Source: a virus. Taken from it: 64,000 bases of DNA. This document shows, piece after piece, positions 9,375-55,425 of this stretch. The DNA is taken from the UHGV virus genome UHGV-0141541; one strand, written 5' to 3'. A program made the position numbers and the translations under genes. Below the pieces are notes generated by a model. The model did not search any database. It saw only the letters and a program-made list of their open reading frames with translations, and was not told the DNA's origin. Positions within the stretch are counted from its first letter, which is position 1, and every line of letters starts with the position of its first letter.

Positions 9375-10036
9375 AAATGAACCTCATCATGACTACCATT
9401 GTGATATTCCACCTTCACGCGTTCTTTGTAGTGCTTGGTGATCTGCATATCCGGGCGCAGCGCGTTCTTCAGGTCTTCGTGAGTCGTCGCCACCATTACC
9501 GTCGCACCAACCTTTCGAGCGGCACGCTGGAGGTTAGATGCCACAACCTGAGCGGTTACACGGTCTAGAACAGCACCGAACTCGTCAGCAGCCCACACTT
9601 TAGCGCCTGACTCAATCAGTTTGGCAATCTTGAGACGATATTTCTGACCGTCTGACATTTCAGAAGGCTTGCGAACAAACAGATATGCATCGTTCAGACC
9701 AGCCATAGATAACAACCCAAGCGCATCGCTGGTCGTTTTGCCCAACTGATCGATGACGTTAACCTCATTATCGAAGGTAAAATCATCGATGGAGGCTACA
9801 GACAGCCCTTCATCCTTCATCTGTCGTTGCAACTCGCGCAGCACAACGGATTTGCCGGAACCGGATTGGCCGGTGATGTACACCACATCGCCCTGCTTCA
9901 CTTCCAGCTCCAGATTGTCGTAAAGCGTCCACTCTTTTTCGTCCAGGCCAAGCCCGAACGACTCAGCGATTTCCAACGTGCGCGTGGTTTTATTTACGCG
10001 TGTCTGAAACGATACGTTGATGATGTATTTGTTCAT
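9371..10036 (-). CDS. ABC-type ATPase (nucleotide-binding domain only)
   Basis: 221 aa; Walker A GQSGSGKS, ABC signature-like SDGQKYR, Walker B VWAADEFG, H-loop TTHE; no transmembrane partner adjacent. Confidence 0.7.
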   Translation of the reverse strand: MNKYIINVSFQTRVNKTTRTLEIAESFGLGLDEKEWTLYDNLELEVKQGDVVYITGQSGSGKSVVLRELQRQMKDEGLSVASIDDFTFDNEVNVIDQLGKTTSDALGLLSMAGLNDAYLFVRKPSEMSDGQKYRLKIAKLIESGAKVWAADEFGAVLDRVTAQVVASNLQRAARKVGATVMVATTHEDLKNALRPDMQITKHYKERVKVEYHNGSHDEVHL

Positions 10037-10734
10037 GCAGCCATCTCCCCGGAAGAGATCTTCTCCGCATATGCCACAAATGCGTCTACCCCGCTTTCTC
10101 CCGTCATTTCTTCCATGTGGGCAAGCAAATCACCAACAACAATGGCAGAGCCAGCAGGAAGCGTTTTAAAGCCCAATACGTCGACAACACGTACTTCTTC
10201 CGCTGCAACTTCACGACTGATCTCGGTGTGTTCATCCTTCTGTCGTTTAGTTTCTTCGCCAAGATCGATAACTAGCGAGTCGGTGTCCATTTCTTCTGTC
10301 ATGCTGCCAACGAGAACATTCAACTCACGCTCTTCAAAGCCGAAAACCTCGATATCGTCCAGAACAAGCGACTCAAGCTCTTTCTGTAGCTTAATTGCAT
10401 CGTAATCAATGCTGGCAAGTCGGTTATCTTCAAGGCGCTTCGCACGAACCTCGTCATCACTGAGATCATCGCGAACAATAACCGGTACGCGCTCAAGTCC
10501 AGCAAAAATTGCAGCCTCACGGCGGCCGTGGCCAGTAATAATTACGTCGTTCTTATCGACCGTAATTGGCTGGTCAAATCCGCGCTTTTTAATGGCTGCG
10601 GCTAGATCTCGGATCTGCTGTTCATCATGCTTTTTGGCATTCATCTCATAGGGAATAAGATCTGCCGGGTCGCGATATACGATTTCTAACTTTTTGGTCA
10701 TTACATACGCTCCTTGTAGTAGTCGACCAGCCAC
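10033..10734 (-). CDS. ParB N-terminal (ParB/Srx-like nuclease) domain protein
   Basis: 233 aa; ParB box ITGHGRREAA; acidic C-terminal half; real start may be MTKKLEIVY at 10702. Confidence 0.7.
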   Translation of the reverse strand: MAGRLLQGAYVMTKKLEIVYRDPADLIPYEMNAKKHDEQQIRDLAAAIKKRGFDQPITVDKNDVIITGHGRREAAIFAGLERVPVIVRDDLSDDEVRAKRLEDNRLASIDYDAIKLQKELESLVLDDIEVFGFEERELNVLVGSMTEEMDTDSLVIDLGEETKRQKDEHTEISREVAAEEVRVVDVLGFKTLPAGSAIVVGDLLAHMEEMTGESGVDAFVAYAEKISSGEMAA

Positions 10735-11399
10735 ACCAGAGCCTCACCAGCGTTCTCCATTTCATTACCGGTGTTAATAGCCTGCTCTTTGATGATGTTT
10801 TTTATGGTTTCTGCAACACGATCTGACGCATCGAAAGTTACTTTGAAGCGCATGGTCTGATGTTCCGCACCCACACGTTCGGTTTTCTCTCGTTTGTCGG
10901 TATCGACAGGCTCATCACTACCACGAGACAACGCCTCCAGTGCTTCAAGGTCGATTGCCGCCTCTTTTGCTAAAACCATCGAGATTTCGTCGTCATACGG
11001 GGCGATTTCAGACAGCTGATAGTCAAGTTCTGACTGAATTTCTTCAATGAAGCGTTGCAATGCGATTTGGTCGTCTTCACCGTATCGCTCGTTGTCCACC
11101 AGTGACATCTGTTTAGCTACGACATCGCTAATTTTGCCCACAGAAAGCACCGGAACCGTTGAAATTCCTTGCTCAATAGCAGCACGCCAGCGATGTTCGC
11201 CGCCGAGGATTTCAAAAAATCCATCTTCAAGTTCACGAGCCAAAATTGGCTTAAAAAAGCCCAATTTTTCGATAGAACCTTTCAGTTTTTCAAAATTCTG
11301 CGCACCAACCGAATTGGTGTTCCAGGTATTCGGGCGAAGGTTGGCAACATCAACCTGCAAAATCGTGATTTTTACATCCATTTTATTGCTACAATCCAC
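10701..11399 (-). CDS. ParB N-terminal domain protein (second copy)
   Basis: 232 aa; ParB box ILGGEHRWRAA; directly upstream of first ParB-like gene; start may be MDVKITI at 11381. Confidence 0.7.
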   Translation of the reverse strand: MDCSNKMDVKITILQVDVANLRPNTWNTNSVGAQNFEKLKGSIEKLGFFKPILARELEDGFFEILGGEHRWRAAIEQGISTVPVLSVGKISDVVAKQMSLVDNERYGEDDQIALQRFIEEIQSELDYQLSEIAPYDDEISMVLAKEAAIDLEALEALSRGSDEPVDTDKREKTERVGAEHQTMRFKVTFDASDRVAETIKNIIKEQAINTGNEMENAGEALVWLVDYYKERM

Positions 11400-22260: not shown

Positions 22261-24294
22261 TTACTTAACCTGGTGGCCAGGTTTAGCACCAGCATCCGGG
22301 CTTAACAGGAAGATATCTTTCCCGCCGGGGCCAGCAGCCATCACCATGCCTTCAGAGATACCGAAGCGCATTTTACGCGGAGCCAGGTTAGCCACCATAA
22401 TGGTGTGACGACCAATCAGTGCCTGTGGATCTGGATAAGCGGAACGGATGCCTGAGAAGACATTACGCTTTTCACCACCGAGATCCAGCGTCAGGCGAAG
22501 CAGTTTGTCAGAACCTTCGACAAACTCCGCGTTTTCAATCAGCGCCACACGCAGGTCAACTTTGGCGAAGTCGTCAAAGGTGATGGTTTCCTGAATCGGG
22601 TCGTCAGCCAGTGGGCCAGTTACCGGTGCAGCTGTGGCTTTCACTTCTTCTTTGGATGCTTCCACCAGTGCTTCCACCTGTTTCATATCGATACGGTTAT
22701 ACAGTGCCTTGAACGGATTCACTTTATGGCCCAGCAGCGGTTGCTGGATACCATCCCAAGTCAGTTCTGTATTCAGGAATGCTTCTGCACGTTCAGTCAG
22801 TTTCGGCAGTACCGGTTTCAGGTACGTCATCAGCACGCGGAACAGGTTAATGCCCATAGAGCAAATCGCCTGCAGATCGGCATCGCGTCCTTCCTGCTTC
22901 GCCACCACCCACGGAGCCTGTTCATCGACATAGCGGTTAGCCAGATCAGCCAGCGCCATGATTTCACGAATCGCTTTACCAAATTCGCGGCTTTCCCATG
23001 CTTCACCAATCACTTCAGCGGCATCAGTAAAGGTTTTGTACAGTTGCGGGTCAGCCAGTTCGCCTGCCAGCACACCGTCAAAACGCTTATTGATAAAGCC
23101 CGCGTTACGGGACGCCAGATTCACCACTTTGTTCACGATATCGGCATTCACGCGCTGAACGAAATCCTCCAGGTTGAGATCGATATCATCAATGCGCGAA
23201 GAGAGTTTCGCAGTGTAGTAGTAACGCAGGCTGTCAGCGTCAAAATGATTCAGCCAGGTGCTGGCTTTAATAAAGGTGCCGCGAGACTTGGACATCTTCG
23301 CACCGTTCACCGTCACATAGCCATGAACAAACAGGTTGGTCGGCTTGCGGAAGTTGCTGCCTTCCAGCATGGCAGGCCAGAACAGGCTGTGGAAGTAAAC
23401 GATATCTTTACCGATGAAGTGGTACAGCTCGGCGGTGGAGTCTTTCTTCCAGTATTCGTCGAAGCTGGTAGTGTCGCCGCGTTTGTCGCACAGATTCTTG
23501 AAGGAACCCATGTAGCCAATCGGTGCGTCCAGCCAGACGTAGAAGTATTTGCCCGGTGCGTTCGGAATTTCAAAACCGAAGTAAGGTGCGTCACGGGAGA
23601 TATCCCACTGTTGCAGGCCAGATTCAAACCACTCCTGCATTTTGTTTGCCACCTGCTCCTGCAACGCACCGCTGCGGGTCCATGCCTGCAACATTTCGCT
23701 GAAAGAAGGCAGATCAAAGAAGAAGTGTTCGGAATCACGCATTACCGGTGTAGCGCCAGAAACCACTGATTTCGGCTCGATCAGTTCCGTCGGGCTGTAG
23801 GTCGCGCCGCAGACTTCACAGTTATCGCCGTATTGATCCGGCGCTTTACATTTCGGGCATGTGCCTTTTACAAAACGGTCCGGCAGGAACATGCCTTTTT
23901 CCGGGTCGTACAGCTGAGAGATGGTGCGGTTTTTAATAAAACCGTTCTCTTTCAGGCGAGTATAGATAAGCTCGGACAACTGACGGTTCTCTTCGCTGTG
24001 CGTCGAGTGATAGTTGTCATAGCTGATGTTAAAGCCTGCGAAATCAGTCTGATGTTCCTGACTCATTTCGCCAATCATCTGTTCCGGTGTGATACCAAGC
24101 TGCTGTGCTTTCAGCATGATTGGCGTACCGTGGGCATCGTCGGCACAGATGAAATTAACCTCGTGGCCGCGCATTCGCTGGTAACGAACCCAGACATCAG
24201 CCTGGATGTGCTCCAGCATATGGCCGAGGTGGATTGAGCCGTTAGCGTACGGCAGCGCGCACGTCACCAGAATTTTCTTCGCGACTTGGGTCAT
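22261..24294 (-). CDS. metG: methionine--tRNA ligase, host-type
   Basis: 677 aa starting [26 protein letters not shown] (HIGH motif), KMSKS present, C-terminal tRNA-binding domain; the 720-aa ORF-track start is an upstream extension. Confidence 0.95.
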
Positions 24295-24451
24295 AGTAGG
24301 CATTACTTCTTTGTAGTGAAAAGGGGCTTGATAGTAACAAAATGGCCTTATGTCTGCCATGTGATAACAGCATTTCTCATAAATGATTAAATGTCGTAGC
24401 TGGAGTACACTACAAGGCGACAATTGCGCAAATTAAAATAAAGGAGACGGG

Positions 24452-25552
24452 ATGAGCGAGTCCAAATCGCCGGATGCCCTGAGAGCAATGGTAGCCGGTA
24501 CGCTGGCTAATTTTCAGCACCCAACCCTGAAACACAACCTGACTACGCTTAAAGCGTTACACCATGTTGCGTTGATGGATGACACACTGCATGTCGAACT
24601 AATCATGCCTTTCGTGTGGAATAAGCCTTTTGAAGACCTGAAAGAGCAATGTAGTGGTGATCTGCTCCGTATCACTGGCGCAAAGGCTATTGACTGGAAG
24701 CTGTCGTACAACATTGCCACGCTTAAGCGCGTCAAAAACCAACCAGGCATTAATGGCGTTAAGAACATTATCGCCGTCAGCTCAGGCAAGGGCGGCGTGG
24801 GTAAATCCTCCACGGCGGTAAACCTGGCACTGGCGTTGGCTGCTGAAGGTGCGAAAGTTGGTATTTTGGATGCCGATATCTATGGTCCATCAATTCCAAC
24901 CATGCTGGGCGCGGAAAACCAACGTCCAACCTCACCTGACGGTACTCACATGGCACCTATCATGTCTCATGGCCTGGCAACCAACTCTATTGGTTATCTG
25001 GTCACCGACGACAATGCAATGGTGTGGCGTGGACCGATGGCCAGCAAGGCGCTGATGCAGATGTTGCAGGAAACTCTATGGCCTGATCTGGACTATCTCG
25101 TTCTCGATATGCCGCCGGGCACTGGTGATATTCAGTTGACGCTGGCGCAGAACATTCCTGTAACTGGTGCGGTTGTGGTAACTACGCCGCAAGACATCGC
25201 GCTGATCGATGCGAAGAAAGGCATTGTGATGTTCGAAAAAGTCGAAGTGCCGGTACTGGGTATCGTTGAAAACATGAGTGTGCATATTTGCAGTAACTGC
25301 GGTCATCACGAGCCAATTTTTGGCACCGGTGGCGCACAGAAACTGGCCGAGAAATACAACACGCAGTTGTTAGGCCAAATGCCACTTCATATCTCTCTTC
25401 GTGAAGATCTGGATAACGGAACACCAACCGTTATTAGTCGTCCAGATAGCGAATTTACAGCTATTTATCGTGACCTCGCAGATCGCGTTGCTGCCCAAAT
25501 GTATTGGCAAGGTGAAGTAATACCTGGCGAAATCGCATTCCGCGCAGTGTGA
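24452..25552 (+). CDS. apbC: iron-sulfur cluster carrier protein ApbC/Mrp, host-type
   Basis: 366 aa; deviant Walker A SSGKGGVGKSS, CxxC motif (CSNCGH); divergent from metG with 157-bp intergenic region, the arrangement I recall for E. coli. Confidence 0.93.
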   Translation: MSESKSPDALRAMVAGTLANFQHPTLKHNLTTLKALHHVALMDDTLHVELIMPFVWNKPFEDLKEQCSGDLLRITGAKAIDWKLSYNIATLKRVKNQPGINGVKNIIAVSSGKGGVGKSSTAVNLALALAAEGAKVGILDADIYGPSIPTMLGAENQRPTSPDGTHMAPIMSHGLATNSIGYLVTDDNAMVWRGPMASKALMQMLQETLWPDLDYLVLDMPPGTGDIQLTLAQNIPVTGAVVVTTPQDIALIDAKKGIVMFEKVEVPVLGIVENMSVHICSNCGHHEPIFGTGGAQKLAEKYNTQLLGQMPLHISLREDLDNGTPTVISRPDSEFTAIYRDLADRVAAQMYWQGEVIPGEIAFRAV

Positions 25553-26629: not shown

Positions 26630-26798
26630 AGATGTCTATTGCCCGACTTGAAAACGAAAAAGCCGCTATCCAAGCCCAGCATGAAGGGGTAGTGACCGGG
26701 TAGCTACGAGAACTGCCAACTATTCGGAAAAACGTACGCTAATTAGCGTACGTTTTCATTCCATTGGGCTTCAGACGCCTTCACCGTCTTGTTCTTTG

Positions 26799-52236: not shown

Positions 52237-52881
52237 TTACAGCGCGTCAGTGGGCTTTTTACGCGCTGCGTTTATGCTTATGACGCCAGCTTTTGGACGT
52301 GGGTCAACAAGGTTAAGCTCTTCTTCGCTGTGGTATTCGAGGTCGAACTCACGTTTTACATGTCTGATGTAGATTGCGGTGAGCAGGCTATCTTTGGTCA
52401 GAAAGTGTCCGTAGGATTTGCGGATCACTTCTTCTACCTTCTCGATTTTCTCACCACCCATACAGAGATGATTAAACCGGCTGTGTTTCCGCAACATTTC
52501 GTCTACTGGGCCTGAGTAAACCTTGTCTACTTTCCCAAAACGGATGATTTTCCCTGTGTCTGCGGATACAAGGCAAATCAGCTTGTCTGGTGATAAACGA
52601 TCTCGCCACGTCACACCTGAACGGAGTGTGTTGAAGTAGGGTGCATCCAATCCGATGATCGGTTTACGAAATGCGAGCAATGGAACGTACCTGATGCAAC
52701 TGTTTAAATGAAAGTTCACACCAGCCTTATCAAGTTTAATTCTGGTTTCGTAGATCGGGCACTTCGCCGCTATACCGCAGATGTCACAAAGCAACTTCTG
52801 CTTATTCAGGTTGGAATTTGATTCGATAGTGTAGGAGCCGTTTTCAAGACGACGAACCCAGCGCGTGCGTTTTAGATCCAT
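52237..52881 (-). CDS. hypothetical protein with putative zinc ribbon
   Basis: 214 aa; CDICG...C cluster. Confidence 0.5.
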   Translation of the reverse strand: MDLKRTRWVRRLENGSYTIESNSNLNKQKLLCDICGIAAKCPIYETRIKLDKAGVNFHLNSCIRYVPLLAFRKPIIGLDAPYFNTLRSGVTWRDRLSPDKLICLVSADTGKIIRFGKVDKVYSGPVDEMLRKHSRFNHLCMGGEKIEKVEEVIRKSYGHFLTKDSLLTAIYIRHVKREFDLEYHSEEELNLVDPRPKAGVISINAARKKPTDAL

Positions 52882-53081
52882 ATGTCATTTTTCTGTGATT
52901 GTTAGCCGAGGCAACGATAACTCACCAGGTGCGCCGAAGGTAGTAAATGCCTGTTTTAATTATTCACATATCCACAGGATAGATCCTAATAAAGAGATCC
53001 ATAGATAGATCCTTGTATAGATCAAATAAGATCCCCGATCGCTGTAAGCCGCGCCACGACTGGTCTGAAGCCATGTTCATG

Positions 53082-53182
53082 TATGCTGCCAGCGGTAATT
53101 GATAGTCTGTCAACGGTTCGCCGTATGCTGCCAACTGTTTTTGGTATGCTGCCAGCGGCAAATCAAGTATGCTGTCAGCGGT
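53082..53182. repeat. iterons upstream of rep (4 copies, consensus TATGCTGYCAGCGGT)
   Basis: copies at about 53082, 53123 (degenerate), 53145 and 53168. Confidence 0.75.
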
Positions 53183-53202
53183 TGAATGACAAAGGTGTCC
53201 AC

Positions 53203-54297
53203 ATGTCCACAAAAAATAAAAAAGGTAAAAATAACAAAGAAGTAGAAGATAATCTCGACAACTTTGAAGAAGGTTCCCTTGAATTGTACACAGGGGAACT
53301 TGTCCCTAATAGCAACAATACAGTCCAACCAATTGCGTTGATGCGGCTGGGGTTGTTCGTGCCCACGCTCAAGGGGACAAAATACAGCAAGCGTAACAAG
53401 CCAAATGAGATCGATGCTTCAAAGGAGCTTGTTCAGCTCGAAGTAGCCCGTTCTGAAGGCTATTCCGATATCAAGATAACCGGTCCTCGTCTCGACATGG
53501 ATCATGATTTCAAAACGTGGGTGGGCGTTGTGCGTTCGCTGGCAGAATACGGCGAACCTAACGGTCGTGTCGAGTTAAGCATCACGAAATTTGCGAAGTT
53601 TTGTGGCTATCCATCGTCACAGATCCGCAAAACACTCCGCGACCGGCTTACAAACAGTCTTTTGAAGATCATGCGTACAACTCTGTCTTTCCAGAGAACG
53701 TATGAAGAAAAGAACGTCGACGGCTCTAACAAGATCTCGCTTCTGATGGTGCACCTCATCAATAGCGTGGACTACAACGAGCAGAAAGATACGGTGGTGT
53801 TCTATGCAGAACCGAAGCTGGCCGAACTATATCGCTTTGACCATAAGGTTCTTTTGCAGTTAAAGGTTATCAATAAGCTACCACGCAAAGAAACAGCACA
53901 GGCTCTGTACACCTTCATCGAAAGTCTTCCAACCAAGCCTGCGCCGGTATCGCTTGCTCGATTGCGTGCGCGACTCAATTTGAGTAGCAGGAATGTCAGC
54001 TCGCAGAATCAGACTATACGTAACGGCTTAAAAGCTCTCCAAGATTTGGGCTATCTCGAATATAGCGAGATTAAGCGGGGGCGGTCGATCTATATCCAGA
54101 TTCACAGCCGCAATCCAAAACTCAAAGTCGCACCGCCAAAACCTGAAGACATCGAACCCAAAAAACCAGATGAGAAAGCCGGGGAAATTGATGCTAAACA
54201 GAACATTATCAACAAGATAACTGAACTTTCGCAGAATTTGACGCCTGAAAATATCAAGATGATTGAGATCCTTTCCAATAGTCTCAAACTGCTTTGA
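53203..54297 (+). CDS. iteron-binding replication initiator (RepA-like), putative
   Basis: ORF track 53083-54297; start moved to MSTKNKKGK (RBS AAGGTG) because the N-terminal extension is encoded by the iterons; flanked by iteron arrays. Confidence 0.6.
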   Translation: MSTKNKKGKNNKEVEDNLDNFEEGSLELYTGELVPNSNNTVQPIALMRLGLFVPTLKGTKYSKRNKPNEIDASKELVQLEVARSEGYSDIKITGPRLDMDHDFKTWVGVVRSLAEYGEPNGRVELSITKFAKFCGYPSSQIRKTLRDRLTNSLLKIMRTTLSFQRTYEEKNVDGSNKISLLMVHLINSVDYNEQKDTVVFYAEPKLAELYRFDHKVLLQLKVINKLPRKETAQALYTFIESLPTKPAPVSLARLRARLNLSSRNVSSQNQTIRNGLKALQDLGYLEYSEIKRGRSIYIQIHSRNPKLKVAPPKPEDIEPKKPDEKAGEIDAKQNIINKITELSQNLTPENIKMIEILSNSLKLL

Positions 54298-54298
54298 T

Positions 54299-54830
54299 AT
54301 GCTGTCAGCGGTGAAATGTATGCTATCAGCGGCTATTTTCCTGAAAAGTATGCTGTGAACGGTTAAAAGATATGCTACCAGCGGTATAGTGAGATAAACG
54401 TATGCTGTGAGCGGTTAATCATCTATCACCACTCAATGCTCTGTCATACCTCCCCAGTGGTTACTAACCTCGAAGAGTGCATTCCATAAAGGTTTGCGCT
54501 CACTAACATTCTATTGCCATTGCGCTGATTGCTTGTAGTGAAAGGCATTTATTGCCTGCTGCTCTCTGATAGAACGTATGCTGTCAGCGGTGTTTTATTG
54601 AGGAATTTTTGTTTGGATATGCTATCAGCGGTAATTAATGGTATATGTCAGACCTTCGTATGCTGCCAGCGGTAATTTTGTTCTGGTTATACCCATACCG
54701 GGACATATTATTCATGCAATGTCTTAAGTATGCTGTCAGCGGTAAAAAATCGAGTAAAGTATGCTGTGAGCGGTGAGATAGACTCTCGATATGCTATCAG
54801 CGGCAGTTGATTGTGTATGCTGTCAGCGGT
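54299..54830. repeat. iteron array downstream of rep (about 12 copies of TATGCTGYCAGCGGT)
   Basis: copies at 54299, 54319, 54349, 54371, 54401, 54577, 54617, 54658, 54729, 54760, 54789 and 54816, irregularly spaced. Confidence 0.8.
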
Positions 54831-54877
54831 GACGACTATGAAATATGACTGCGGCACGTGCCGCAGTCAGTTTGCAT

Positions 54878-55090
54878 TTAGTGTATTTTCTTCAACAGAC
54901 CCCAAAGTGTTCCGGCTTTTGTAGTCAGTTTTCCTGTTTCTGGATCGTACATACGCCATTCACGCCGCTGGTGGACGATATACCCATCTTCACGTTCCAG
55001 ACGCTCAAGAATGCCAGGCTGCTTGAAACCCTTAGCACGCCAGTATCCGGTTGTTTTCTCGATTTCCAGACCTGCCAGTGTTAATGCCAT
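54878..55090 (-). CDS. hypothetical small protein
   Basis: 70 aa; followed by perfect palindrome GACTGCGGCAC/GTGCCGCAGTC at 54848-54869. Confidence 0.4.
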   Translation of the reverse strand: MALTLAGLEIEKTTGYWRAKGFKQPGILERLEREDGYIVHQRREWRMYDPETGKLTTKAGTLWGLLKKIH

Positions 55091-55425
55091 TATCCAACCT
55101 CCTTGCAGTCATCGAAAAGGTAGCTTTGCTGAGAAGCGTGAACGCCATAGAAGCCCTTGTATTTGTTGTATACGAAGTGGTCTTCTCCGACGCCGGTTAA
55201 TTTGCCATTACGGTTTGTGAGATATGGGGATGACAATACTCGATCGTCTCGCACAACATAGAACTGGTCGCCGCTGTCTACGACCATCGCGCCATATGGT
55301 GCTTTTATGACGTCGGTAAGAGCGCCATTCTTAACGTCGGCTACAGACATTTCACACTGATAAACAGTGGTGTCGGCCACAACGATCGAAGAAAGGAACA
55401 ACAGCGCGAATGGGATGGCCTTCAT
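55090..55425 (-). CDS. secreted protein (signal peptide)
   Basis: 111 aa; N-terminal MKAIPFALLFLSSIVVA; RBS GAGGTG. Confidence 0.5.
   Translation of the reverse strand: MKAIPFALLFLSSIVVADTTVYQCEMSVADVKNGALTDVIKAPYGAMVVDSGDQFYVVRDDRVLSSPYLTNRNGKLTGVGEDHFVYNKYKGFYGVHASQQSYLFDDCKEVG

What the first reader, a model, noticed from the sequence alone, without database searches (positions are those of the whole stretch)
53082..54830. P1-like iteron replicon: rep gene flanked by 4 upstream and about 12 downstream iterons
TATGCTGYCAGCGGT iterons flank a 364-aa gene whose annotated N-terminal extension is itself iteron-encoded. This mirrors the oriR/incC - repA - incA layout of P1-type plasmid replicons, with an origin-side array and a downstream copy-control array, and supports a plasmid-prophage lifestyle for the element.
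Basis: partly seen in the sequence, partly recalled or inferred. Interest (0 to 1): 0.55.

Follow-up and report, generated by a model that had tools for sequence, protein, structure and literature searches.

The report
P1-type iteron replicon of phage-plasmid
This is the plasmid-maintenance replication unit of an SSU5-like E. coli phage-plasmid, a true relative of the classic phage P1 origin (origin repeats, initiator gene, downstream control repeats); it is real and correctly read, but it belongs to an already catalogued replicon type and is ordinary.

Summary
The motif TATGCTGYCAGCGGT occurs 16 times (≤2 mismatches), all on the + strand, where chance gives 0.16. Four copies lie upstream and twelve downstream of a 364-aa gene. 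A degenerate fifth upstream copy at 53103 completes a 21-21-21-23 bp phased set.

The interpretation also holds, by homology as well as by layout:
- The protein is 46% identical to P1 RepA (E 4e-86).
- Its predicted fold matches iteron-binding initiators (RctB, RepE, pi, pPS10 RepA, TrfA).
- The 120 bp left of the iterons align at 82% with P1 oriR. They hold two tandem DnaA boxes, the only dense GATC cluster in the 64 kb, and the same GC-rich spacer.
- The 404-aa start used by PGAP is an artefact of ATG-containing iterons spaced in frame.

The window also encodes portal, terminase and major head proteins. The replicon occurs in 120 of 5,426 complete E. coli genomes, always on plasmids.

Rep is 362/364 identical to that of pAVS0575-B. 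A paper groups that plasmid with pECOH89 and plasmids typed IncFIB(H89-PhagePlasmid). MOB-suite types two near-identical plasmids, and a third matched over the downstream array, as rep_cluster_488.

Differences from P1: 12 downstream iterons in two clusters, all direct; a different iteron word; a C-terminal helical tail on Rep; no adjacent par operon.

Replication, copy control and autoregulation are inferred, not shown. Low novelty.

The parts
52960..52976 (+). Two tandem DnaA boxes, TTATTCACA and ATATCCACA, sharing one base. They correspond to the site annotated 'DnaA' in P1 oriR.
   Evidence: Scan for TTATNCACA found 0 and 1 mismatch. The boxes align with P1 TTATCCACATTATCCAC. They are conserved in p13P484A-3, PhiR41_1 and Klebsiella pJN2-26.
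52979..53042 (.). AT-rich stretch with six GATC (Dam) sites at 52982, 52996, 53008, 53020, 53030 and 53037. Four are in AGATCC context, one is AGATCA and one CGATCG. Presumed DNA-unwinding element and methylation/sequestration target.
   Evidence: This is the only place in 64 kb with 4 or more GATC per 60 bp. GC is 0.36 here. It aligns with the annotated Dam sites of P1.
53048..53058 (.). GC-rich spacer GCCGCGCCACG between the GATC region and the iterons. Identical in P1 oriR.
   Evidence: Alignments.
53082..53182 (+). Origin-side iteron set (incC-like). Five copies at 53082, 53103 (degenerate), 53124, 53145 and 53168, spaced 21/21/21/23 bp.
   Evidence: P1 has five iterons at 20-22 bp spacing in the same position.
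53083..53202 (+). Spurious N-terminal extension of the annotated 404-aa ORF. It is translated iterons and most likely not coding.
   Evidence: MLPAV/MLPTV/MLPAA. Homology to P1 RepA starts at residue 32 of the short form. Gene callers choose many different starts in relatives, giving lengths from 364 to 407 aa.
53191..53195 (+). Shine-Dalgarno-like AAAGG, 7 nt before ATG 53203. Two weak DnaA-box-like words (GTGTCCACA 53195-53203, ATGTCCACA 53203-53211) overlap the start codon.
   Evidence: Read from the sequence. AAAGG and TATCCACA are conserved in the Klebsiella relative. P1 has DnaA-box-like words between its last iteron and repA.
53203..54297 (+). repA: a 364-aa initiator with WH1-WH2 fold, homologous to P1 RepA and RepFIB RepA. 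It has a disordered N-terminus (1-41), a disordered linker (309-329) and a C-terminal two-helix hairpin (331-363) that lies beyond the end of P1 RepA.
54298..54415 (+). Downstream iteron cluster I (incA-like). Five direct copies spaced 21/30/22/30 bp, starting at the base after the repA stop codon.
   Evidence: Conserved in plasmid relatives.
54416..54576 (.). 161-bp iteron-free spacer between the two downstream clusters. Partly replaced by iterons in Klebsiella pJN2-26. No known RNA family and no assigned function.
54577..54830 (+). Downstream iteron cluster II (incA-like). Seven direct copies spaced 41/41/70/31/30/26 bp. PhiR41_1 lacks 87 bp here, which is exactly three iterons.
54846..54869 (.). 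GC-rich hairpin (10 bp stem) that looks like a terminator on both strands. It closes the replicon module against the convergent 70-aa gene at 54878-55090.

Best explanation
Window 52960-54869 is the plasmid-state replicon of an SSU5-like E. coli phage-plasmid. It is a member of the P1 RepA / RepFIB family of iteron replicons.

Proposed mechanism, by homology with P1 oriR:
1. Monomers of the 364-aa Rep bind the five phased iterons at 53082-53182.
2. Together with host DnaA at the two boxes at 52960-52976, they open the adjacent AT-rich region. That region carries six GATC sites, so initiation is probably tied to Dam methylation and to sequestration after firing.
3. The host replisome is then loaded.
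4. Rep bound to the origin iterons also represses its own promoter, which should lie within or just after them.
5. The twelve downstream iterons (54298-54830) are not needed for initiation. They hold copy number low by titrating Rep and by Rep-mediated pairing (handcuffing) with the origin iterons. They would act as an incompatibility determinant.

Shown here: the repeats, their phasing, homology of Rep and of origin DNA to P1, the winged-helix initiator fold, exclusive plasmid location in nature, and change of iteron word together with Rep in relatives.

Inferred: Rep-iteron binding, DnaA and Dam dependence, autoregulation, and copy control by the downstream array.
For: - 16 motif matches against 0.16 expected, all in one orientation and flanking one gene. 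A fifth phased upstream copy exists.
- Rep is 46% identical to P1 RepA, E 4e-86. Pfam Rep3_N is above threshold.
- The AF2 model has a WH1+WH2 core, and iteron initiators are the top PDB fold matches: RctB 5e-8, RepE 1e-4, then pi, pPS10 RepA and TrfA.
- The origin's left part is 82% identical to the annotated DnaA and Dam sites of P1. The GATC cluster is unique in the 64 kb.
- Layout is conserved while the iteron word changes with Rep. Klebsiella pJN2-26 (Rep 85% identical) has the same word. SSU5 (48%) and Cronobacter JK004 (45%) have different words in the same layout.
- MOB-suite reports only this replicon (rep_cluster_488) for two near-identical plasmids of 100 and 128 kb and for the 111.7-kb pB20, matched over the downstream array.
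- The replicon is in 120 of 5,426 complete E. coli genomes. All 185 places are on plasmids.
- The downstream array is full length in 120 of 124 PLSDB records.
- General iteron mechanism and handcuffing: PMC6312765.
Against: - No experiment on this replicon was found in the searchable literature.
- No consensus sigma-70 promoter lies inside the upstream iterons. The best candidate, TTGATA-19 nt-TATGCT at 53099, is weak and not conserved in Klebsiella. Autoregulation is therefore unsupported by sequence.
- All downstream iterons are direct, whereas P1 incA has both orientations. The array is split by a 161-bp spacer. Transfer of the incA role is plausible but not exact.
- The element encodes its own DnaE and a DnaB-like helicase, so host dependence could differ from P1.
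Confidence: 0.88

Rival explanations
1. The downstream array is not a copy-control locus. It is a second origin, or a partition or pairing site used for segregation, since no par operon follows it as in P1.
For: No parAB lies next to the array; small reverse-strand genes follow it. All copies are direct and lie in two clusters, unlike P1 incA. SSU5 has a duplicated origin-like unit, so origin duplications do occur in this group.
Against: The array uses the same word as the origin iterons, so the simplest ligand is Rep. It has no DnaA boxes or GATC cluster beside it. Downstream same-word arrays are found in P1, JK004, SSU5 and Klebsiella relatives. In pAVS0575-B an AAA family ATPase gene and a small neighbouring gene, possible partition genes, lie about 30 kb away (their identity was not tested), and pECOH89 is reported to carry parA and parB (PMC3999498).
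Confidence: 0.07
2. The repeats are phage attachment or recombination sites (as annotated attL/attR in Klebsiella phage pJN2-26), or the 404-aa ORF is real and the upstream repeats are a coding repeat.
For: The pJN2-26 record labels two of the repeats attR and attL. PGAP annotates the 404-aa ORF in many records.
Against: There are 17 copies, not two. No chromosomal copy exists in 5,426 genomes. The repeats continue after the stop codon, where they cannot be coding. Homology to P1 RepA starts at residue 32 of the short form, and residues 1-41 of it are already predicted disordered. Called starts vary from 364 to 407 aa among close relatives. The ATG belongs to the iteron word itself, and 21-bp spacing keeps it in frame.
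Confidence: 0.02
3. The replicon is a dispensable relic. The element is maintained through its own phage replication genes (DnaE, DnaB-like helicase) from another origin.
For: The backbone encodes DnaE, a DnaB-like helicase, RecA-like and nucleotide-metabolism genes. A separate lytic origin is expected, as in P1.
Against: repA is intact and 97-100% conserved with its arrays across more than 100 plasmids. Shortened 62-76 kb derivatives keep the replicon. It is the only replicon MOB-suite reports for the three records whose typing was read.
Confidence: 0.03

Closest known systems
Phage P1 plasmid replicon (oriR/incC - repA - incA; IncY), GenBank K02380
   Same: Rep is 46% identical. The order is the same: DnaA boxes, GATC-rich AT region, GC spacer, five about-21-bp-phased iterons, repA, downstream iteron array. 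The origin's left part is 82% identical in DNA. The 5' half of the iteron is similar (TGTGCTG in P1, TATGCTG here).
   Different: The iteron word differs in its 3' half, so specificity and incompatibility are presumably different. There are 12 downstream iterons, all direct and in two clusters, against 9 in P1 with both orientations. Rep is 364 aa against 286 aa, with a longer N-terminus and a C-terminal helical hairpin. No parAB-parS follows the array. The phage backbone is unrelated (SSU5-like siphovirus-type genes).
IncFIB(H89-PhagePlasmid) / pECOH89-type replicon; MOB-suite rep_cluster_488
   Same: Rep is 362/364 identical to pAVS0575-B. A paper groups that plasmid with pECOH89 and with plasmids typed IncFIB(H89-PhagePlasmid). 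pECOH89 RepA is reported 48% identical to pLF82 RepA, the same value as window against Cyrano, taken here to be the pLF82 phage (that equivalence is from background knowledge). The 12-iteron array is identical in layout.
   Different: Nothing of substance; this is the same replicon type. The pECOH89 sequence itself was not available for direct comparison.
IncpKPHS1 replicon of Klebsiella SSU5-like phage-plasmids (PMC6735626)
   Same: If pJN2-26 is of this type (assumed; the record carries no Inc typing), Rep is about 85% identical. It has the same iteron word, five upstream iterons with identical spacing, and the same DnaA/GATC region.
   Different: The published description lists only four iterons downstream of repA. 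pJN2-26 actually shows five upstream and at least eight downstream. The downstream array is organised differently.
SSU5 / pHCM2 / pLF82 (Cyrano) RepA replicon
   Same: Same phage backbone and the same flanking genes, 75-78% identical in DNA up to the GATC cluster on one side and from the terminator on the other. Same layout of iterons around repA.
   Different: Rep is only 48% identical. The iteron word is different (AACCACTGTAGAGAGT). SSU5 has inverted copies downstream and a duplicated origin unit. The iteron-Rep-array module looks exchanged as a cassette.
Mini-F RepE, R6K pi, pPS10 RepA, RK2 TrfA, Vibrio RctB (solved structures)
   Same: Predicted WH1-WH2 fold. These are the top Foldseek matches.
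   Different: Sequence identity is 8-14%. There is no sequence-level match to any PDB chain.

Membership tests
P1 RepA / RepFIB-type iteron replicon | Initiator homologous to P1 RepA (Rep3 superfamily, WH1+WH2) | tested here: met
   BLASTP 46% identity, E 4e-86. Pfam Rep3_N 37.5 bits against a cut-off of 22.4. Fold matches to RepE, pi, pPS10 RepA, TrfA and RctB.
P1 RepA / RepFIB-type iteron replicon | Set of directly repeated iterons at about two helical turns immediately upstream of repA | tested here: met
   Five copies at 21/21/21/23 bp. P1 has five at 20-22 bp.
P1 RepA / RepFIB-type iteron replicon | DnaA boxes at the outer end of the origin | tested here: met
   TTATTCACA and ATATCCACA at 52960-52976 align with the annotated DnaA site of P1. 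DnaA binding itself was not testable.
P1 RepA / RepFIB-type iteron replicon | AT-rich region with clustered GATC (Dam) sites between the DnaA boxes and the iterons | tested here: met
   Six GATC in 59 bp (52982-53040), unique in the 64 kb. They align with P1 Dam sites.
P1 RepA / RepFIB-type iteron replicon | Second array of the same iterons downstream of repA (incA) | tested here: met
   12 copies in 54298-54830. Orientation and clustering differ from P1.
P1 RepA / RepFIB-type iteron replicon | repA promoter embedded in the origin iterons (autorepression) | tested here: inconclusive
   No consensus promoter in 53040-53215. The best candidate is TTGATA-19-TATGCT and it is not conserved in Klebsiella.
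P1 RepA / RepFIB-type iteron replicon | Autonomous replication from the ori+repA fragment; copy-up on deletion of the downstream array; incompatibility exerted by the cloned arrays | not testable with these tools
   Indirect support only: exclusive plasmid location and sole replicon reported for the three records whose typing was read.
P1 plasmid maintenance region (rep-par unit) | parA-parB-parS operon immediately downstream of incA | tested here: not met
   Small reverse-strand genes follow the array. The ParB_N proteins in the window lie at 10033-11399 beside the terminase. An AAA family ATPase gene, a possible partition gene, is about 30 kb away in pAVS0575-B.
IncFIB(H89-PhagePlasmid) / rep_cluster_488 | Near-identity of repA to the reference of the type | tested here: met
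   362/364 aa identical to pAVS0575-B, which PMC12838234 groups with the H89 type and pECOH89. Two near-identical plasmids, and pB20 matched over the array, are typed rep_cluster_488. The pECOH89 sequence itself was not held.
SSU5-like phage-plasmid (SSU5 supergroup) | Phage structural and packaging genes together with a plasmid replicon on one circular extrachromosomal element | tested here: met
   Portal, large terminase, scaffold and major head genes at 1.7-7.4 kb of the window. 98% identity to records deposited as phages PhiR41_1 and CMS-2020a, and to circular plasmids of about 100-128 kb.

The most novel reading that the evidence does not exclude
Within one conserved SSU5-type phage backbone, the specificity module (GC spacer, iterons, repA, downstream array, terminator; window 53042-54879) is exchanged as a cassette. 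The DnaA-box/GATC unwinding region stays with the flank. This would create mutually compatible replicon types on the same phage. Within a type, recombination between iterons changes the length of the control array (12 copies here, 9 in PhiR41_1) and so may tune copy number and the dosage of carried resistance genes.
Probability: 0.3. Interest if true: 0.35.

Novelty: already known. Interest (0 to 1): 0.12.

Why it matters
It matters mainly for annotation and typing.
- It fixes the true repA start at 53203, not 53083. PGAP uses the long form in the RefSeq records read here, and the protein cluster holding it has 667 member sequences.
- It shows that 'attL/attR' features in at least one deposited phage record are iterons.
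- It gives a complete map of the origin and control arrays. Published descriptions of the Klebsiella sister type list only four iterons.

The map gives ready coordinates for building mini-replicons, incompatibility probes or curing tools for SSU5-like phage-plasmids that carry blaCTX-M-15. It does not reveal a new mechanism.

Tried and rejected
- NCBIfam scan of Rep: no family.
- Sequence searches of PDB with the protein and with a 39-sequence profile: only chance hits. Fold search was needed instead.
- Rfam at permissive threshold over 52700-55100: nothing, so no sign of an antisense-RNA control element.
- Consensus promoter scans: nothing acceptable on the + strand within the origin iterons.
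- Inverted-repeat search around the origin: none, so there is no separate operator-type dyad. Only the terminator hairpin was found.
- Direct look-ups of pECOH89 (HG530657), p09EL50 (CP003298) and MW590712 failed because they are not held. Identity with the H89 type was therefore established through pAVS0575-B and the literature.
- A preprint on phage-plasmid heteroresistance could not be read.
- False lead: I briefly read 77-80% hits as a second replicon copy inside the window. They were hits to SSU5, stored in the same multi-record file. Self-BLAST shows no paralogue and the labelled re-run settled it.
- The att-site and 404-aa-ORF readings were considered and rejected (see rivals).
Full report
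**1. The observation**

TATGCTGYCAGCGGT with up to two mismatches occurs 16 times in the 64-kb window. All copies are on the + strand and all lie between 53082 and 54830. One hundred dinucleotide-preserving shuffles gave a mean of 0.16 and never more than one.

- Four copies lie upstream of the gene: 53082, 53124, 53145, 53168.
- Twelve lie downstream: five at 54298-54415, a 161-bp gap, then seven at 54577-54830.

A scan allowing more mismatches added a degenerate copy at 53103 (TAGTCTGTCAACGGT). It fills the one 42-bp interval, so the upstream set is five sites spaced 21, 21, 21 and 23 bp. In the Klebsiella relative pJN2-26 that position holds a copy that matches the motif exactly, and the five-site spacing is identical. 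The conserved core is 16 bp, (G/A)TATGCTGYCAGCGGT.

The gene runs from ATG 53203 to the stop at 54297 (364 aa). The first downstream iteron begins at the next base. The mechanical ORF reaches back to ATG 53083 (404 aa).

**2. The start codon**

The extra 40 residues read MLPAVIDSLSTVRRMLPTVFGMLPAA..., which is the iterons translated. The iteron word contains ATG, and 21-bp spacing keeps successive ATGs in frame.

- RefSeq/PGAP records use the 404-aa form. PhiR41_1 uses the 364-aa form. Close relatives are called at 364, 365, 366, 370, 377, 386, 393 and 403-407 aa.
- Homology with P1 RepA begins at residue 32 of the short form.
- Residues 1-41 of the short form are already predicted disordered.
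- AAAGG lies 7 nt before ATG 53203 and is conserved in Klebsiella.

The extension is most likely an annotation artefact.

**3. What the protein is**

- Pfam gives Rep3_N (WH1 of initiator Rep proteins) at E 3.9e-9, above the curated cut-off, plus a weak Rep3_C.
- tblastn against phage records finds identical or near-identical proteins in Escherichia phages PhiR41_1 and CMS-2020a. It finds 85-87% identity in Klebsiella phage-plasmids, 48% in SSU5 and Cyrano, 45% in Cronobacter phage JK004, and 41-44% in P1, P7 and P1-like phages, annotated RepA or 'RepFIB replication protein A'.
- A direct BLASTP with P1 RepA (from GenBank K02380) gives 129/278 identities (46%), E 4e-86, over residues 32-309.
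- The large protein database returns 477 relatives, all with Pfam PF01051. They are named RepB-family, RepA or RepFIB, and come from Enterobacterales plasmids.
- Sequence searches of PDB found nothing.
- An AlphaFold2 model built on 39 sequences has mean pLDDT 71. It has a confident core at 65-305 with two winged-helix units, disordered segments at 1-41 and 309-329, and a confident C-terminal two-helix hairpin at 331-363.
- Foldseek against PDB ranks iteron-binding initiators first: RctB domains 2-3 (5e-8), RepE dimer and RepE54-iteron complexes (1e-4 to 1e-3), the MSBI1.176 WH1 domain, R6K pi, pPS10 RepA and TrfA.

**4. The origin DNA**

K02380 annotates P1 oriR as follows: a DnaA site, four Dam sites, five iterons (incC) with the repA -35/-10 between them, repA, and incA.

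The window stretch 52940-53081 aligns with P1 715-845 at 82% identity. The alignment score is 150 against 54 ± 6 for shuffles. The shared features are:
- two tandem DnaA boxes (TTATTCACA and ATATCCACA at 52960-52976);
- an AT-rich run with six GATC sites, four of them in the AGATCC context seen at P1's annotated Dam sites;
- the identical GC-rich spacer GCCGCGCCACG.

The GATC cluster is the only place in the window with four or more GATC per 60 bp. These features are conserved in E. coli relatives and in Klebsiella pJN2-26. Two weaker DnaA-box-like words overlap the repA start. The Klebsiella version, GTATCCACA, is closer to consensus. P1 also has DnaA-box-like words between its last iteron and repA.

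**5. Relatives and co-variation**

- pJN2-26 (Rep 85% identical) uses the same iteron word, five upstream and at least eight downstream.
- SSU5 (48%) keeps the layout with another word (AACCACTGTAGAGAGT) and has inverted copies downstream.
- JK004 (45%) has P1-like words (ATGTGCGCTGGAGGG), five upstream plus direct and inverted copies downstream, exactly as P1.

The layout is constant while the word changes with the protein. That is expected if Rep reads the iterons.

Against SSU5, the flanking DNA aligns at 75-78% up to window 53041 (including the DnaA/GATC region) and again from 54880. Between those points only short patches of repA align. The specificity module therefore looks exchanged as a unit. 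PhiR41_1 lacks 87 bp that correspond to exactly three downstream iterons, so array length is polymorphic.

**6. The element and its lifestyle**

The window encodes portal, large terminase, scaffold, major head and an Ig-domain structural protein at 1.7-7.4 kb. It also encodes a helicase, a DNA methyltransferase and a thymidylate synthase.

- The 2-kb region is 98-99% identical to 120+ circular plasmids of about 100-128 kb. There are also shortened 62-76 kb derivatives in E. coli, E. albertii and Shigella. It matches three records deposited as Escherichia phage genomes, PhiR41_1 among them.
- MOB-suite lists a single replicon, rep_cluster_488, for two of these plasmids and for pB20, matched over the downstream array.
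- Among 5,426 complete E. coli genomes, 120 carry it. All 185 places are on plasmids and none on a chromosome.
- The downstream array is full length in 120 of 124 PLSDB records.

**7. What is already known**

- Rep is 362/364 identical to that of pAVS0575-B. PMC12838234 groups that plasmid with pECOH89 and with plasmids typed IncFIB(H89-PhagePlasmid).
- The pECOH89 announcement reports RepA 48% identical to pLF82 RepA. That matches window against Cyrano, which I take to be the pLF82 phage.
- Typing tools already include SSU5-group IncFIB replication genes.
- The phage-plasmid survey describes the SSU5 supergroup, and alternative replicases at one position in P1-like elements.
- For the Klebsiella sister type, IncpKPHS1, a paper reports only 'four iterons 48-218 bp downstream of repA' and no known domain in RepA.

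The full P1-like anatomy shown here is more complete than the descriptions I could find, but it is not a new kind of thing. I found no experimental dissection of this replicon in the searchable library.

**8. Mechanism**

By homology with P1, and with the general iteron model summarised in PMC6312765, the proposed steps are as follows.
1. Rep monomers on the five phased iterons, together with DnaA, open the GATC-rich AT region.
2. Dam methylation state probably gates re-initiation.
3. Rep on the origin iterons represses repA.
4. The twelve downstream iterons titrate Rep and handcuff the origin, which limits copy number and causes incompatibility.

Homology and anatomy are shown. Binding, host-factor dependence, autorepression and copy control are inferred. 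The weakest step is autorepression, because no convincing promoter was found in the iterons.

Differences from P1:
- 12 downstream iterons against 9, all direct and in two clusters separated by 161 bp with no Rfam match;
- a different 3' half of the iteron;
- a Rep with a longer N-terminus and a C-terminal helical hairpin, which appears in the consensus of the aligned relatives and lies beyond the end of P1 RepA;
- no adjacent par operon.

**9. Verdict**

The feature is a catalogued replicon type of a well-known family. Interest is low. Its practical value lies in annotation: the true repA start, iterons mislabelled as att sites, and complete iteron maps.

Noticed in passing
L005 (Klebsiella phage pJN2-26, MZ779062) 1378-1397 and 2648-2667: Two iterons flanking repA are annotated in the deposited record as phage attachment sites attR and attL. 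They are members of the same family of 13 or more iterons, so this is an annotation artefact.
   Followed up: yes
window 53083-53202; L001 8185-9399; L004 20184-21398: PGAP annotates repA as 404 aa starting inside the first iteron. Close relatives are called at 364-407 aa depending on which iteron ATG is chosen. The likely true start is 53203.
   Followed up: yes
L002 (phage PhiR41_1) against window 54729-54815: An 87-bp deletion removes exactly three downstream iterons, leaving 9 instead of 12. This looks like iteron-iteron recombination. Any effect on copy number is unknown.
   Followed up: partly
window 53041 and 54880 against L006 (SSU5): Flanks align with SSU5 at 75-78% up to the end of the GATC cluster and again from just after the terminator. 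The iteron-repA-array module between them is essentially unalignable, which suggests cassette exchange of replicon specificity on a conserved backbone.
   Followed up: partly
L006 (SSU5) 780-999 and 1155-1411: SSU5 carries a tandem duplication of the origin unit (DnaA box, GATC-rich stretch and a set of iterons) upstream of its repA.
   Followed up: no
window 52237-52881 (- strand): A 214-aa ORF transcribed away from the origin has no Pfam hit. It keeps the same 645-bp length and position next to the replicon in SSU5 and pJN2-26, even where the Rep type differs. Function unknown.
   Followed up: partly
window 22261-25552: A long ORF annotated metG (methionine--tRNA ligase) in a related plasmid lies beside an ApbC/NUBPL-type P-loop ATPase gene (Pfam ParA/NUBPL, E 2e-102). 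Both are host-like housekeeping genes carried by the phage-plasmid.
   Followed up: partly
window 10033-11399 (- strand): Two adjacent ParB_N-domain proteins (233 and 232 aa) lie near the terminase and helicase genes. They are probably not the plasmid partition system: in the related pAVS0575-B an AAA family ATPase gene that might be a ParA sits about 30 kb on the other side of repA, outside this window.
   Followed up: partly
window 52968 against L001 (p13P484A-3): The window has a 1-bp deletion between the two DnaA boxes (TTATTCACA-TATCCACA) relative to p13P484A-3 and P1 (TTATNCACATTATCCAC). PhiR41_1 shares the deletion.
   Followed up: no
every iteron, e.g. window 53086-53094: Each iteron contains the 9-bp palindrome GCTGYCAGC, which is absent from P1 iterons. 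It could be chance, or it could reflect a different binding mode of Rep.
   Followed up: no
window 26729-26756: A 28-nt perfect palindrome appeared in the self-BLAST.
   Followed up: no
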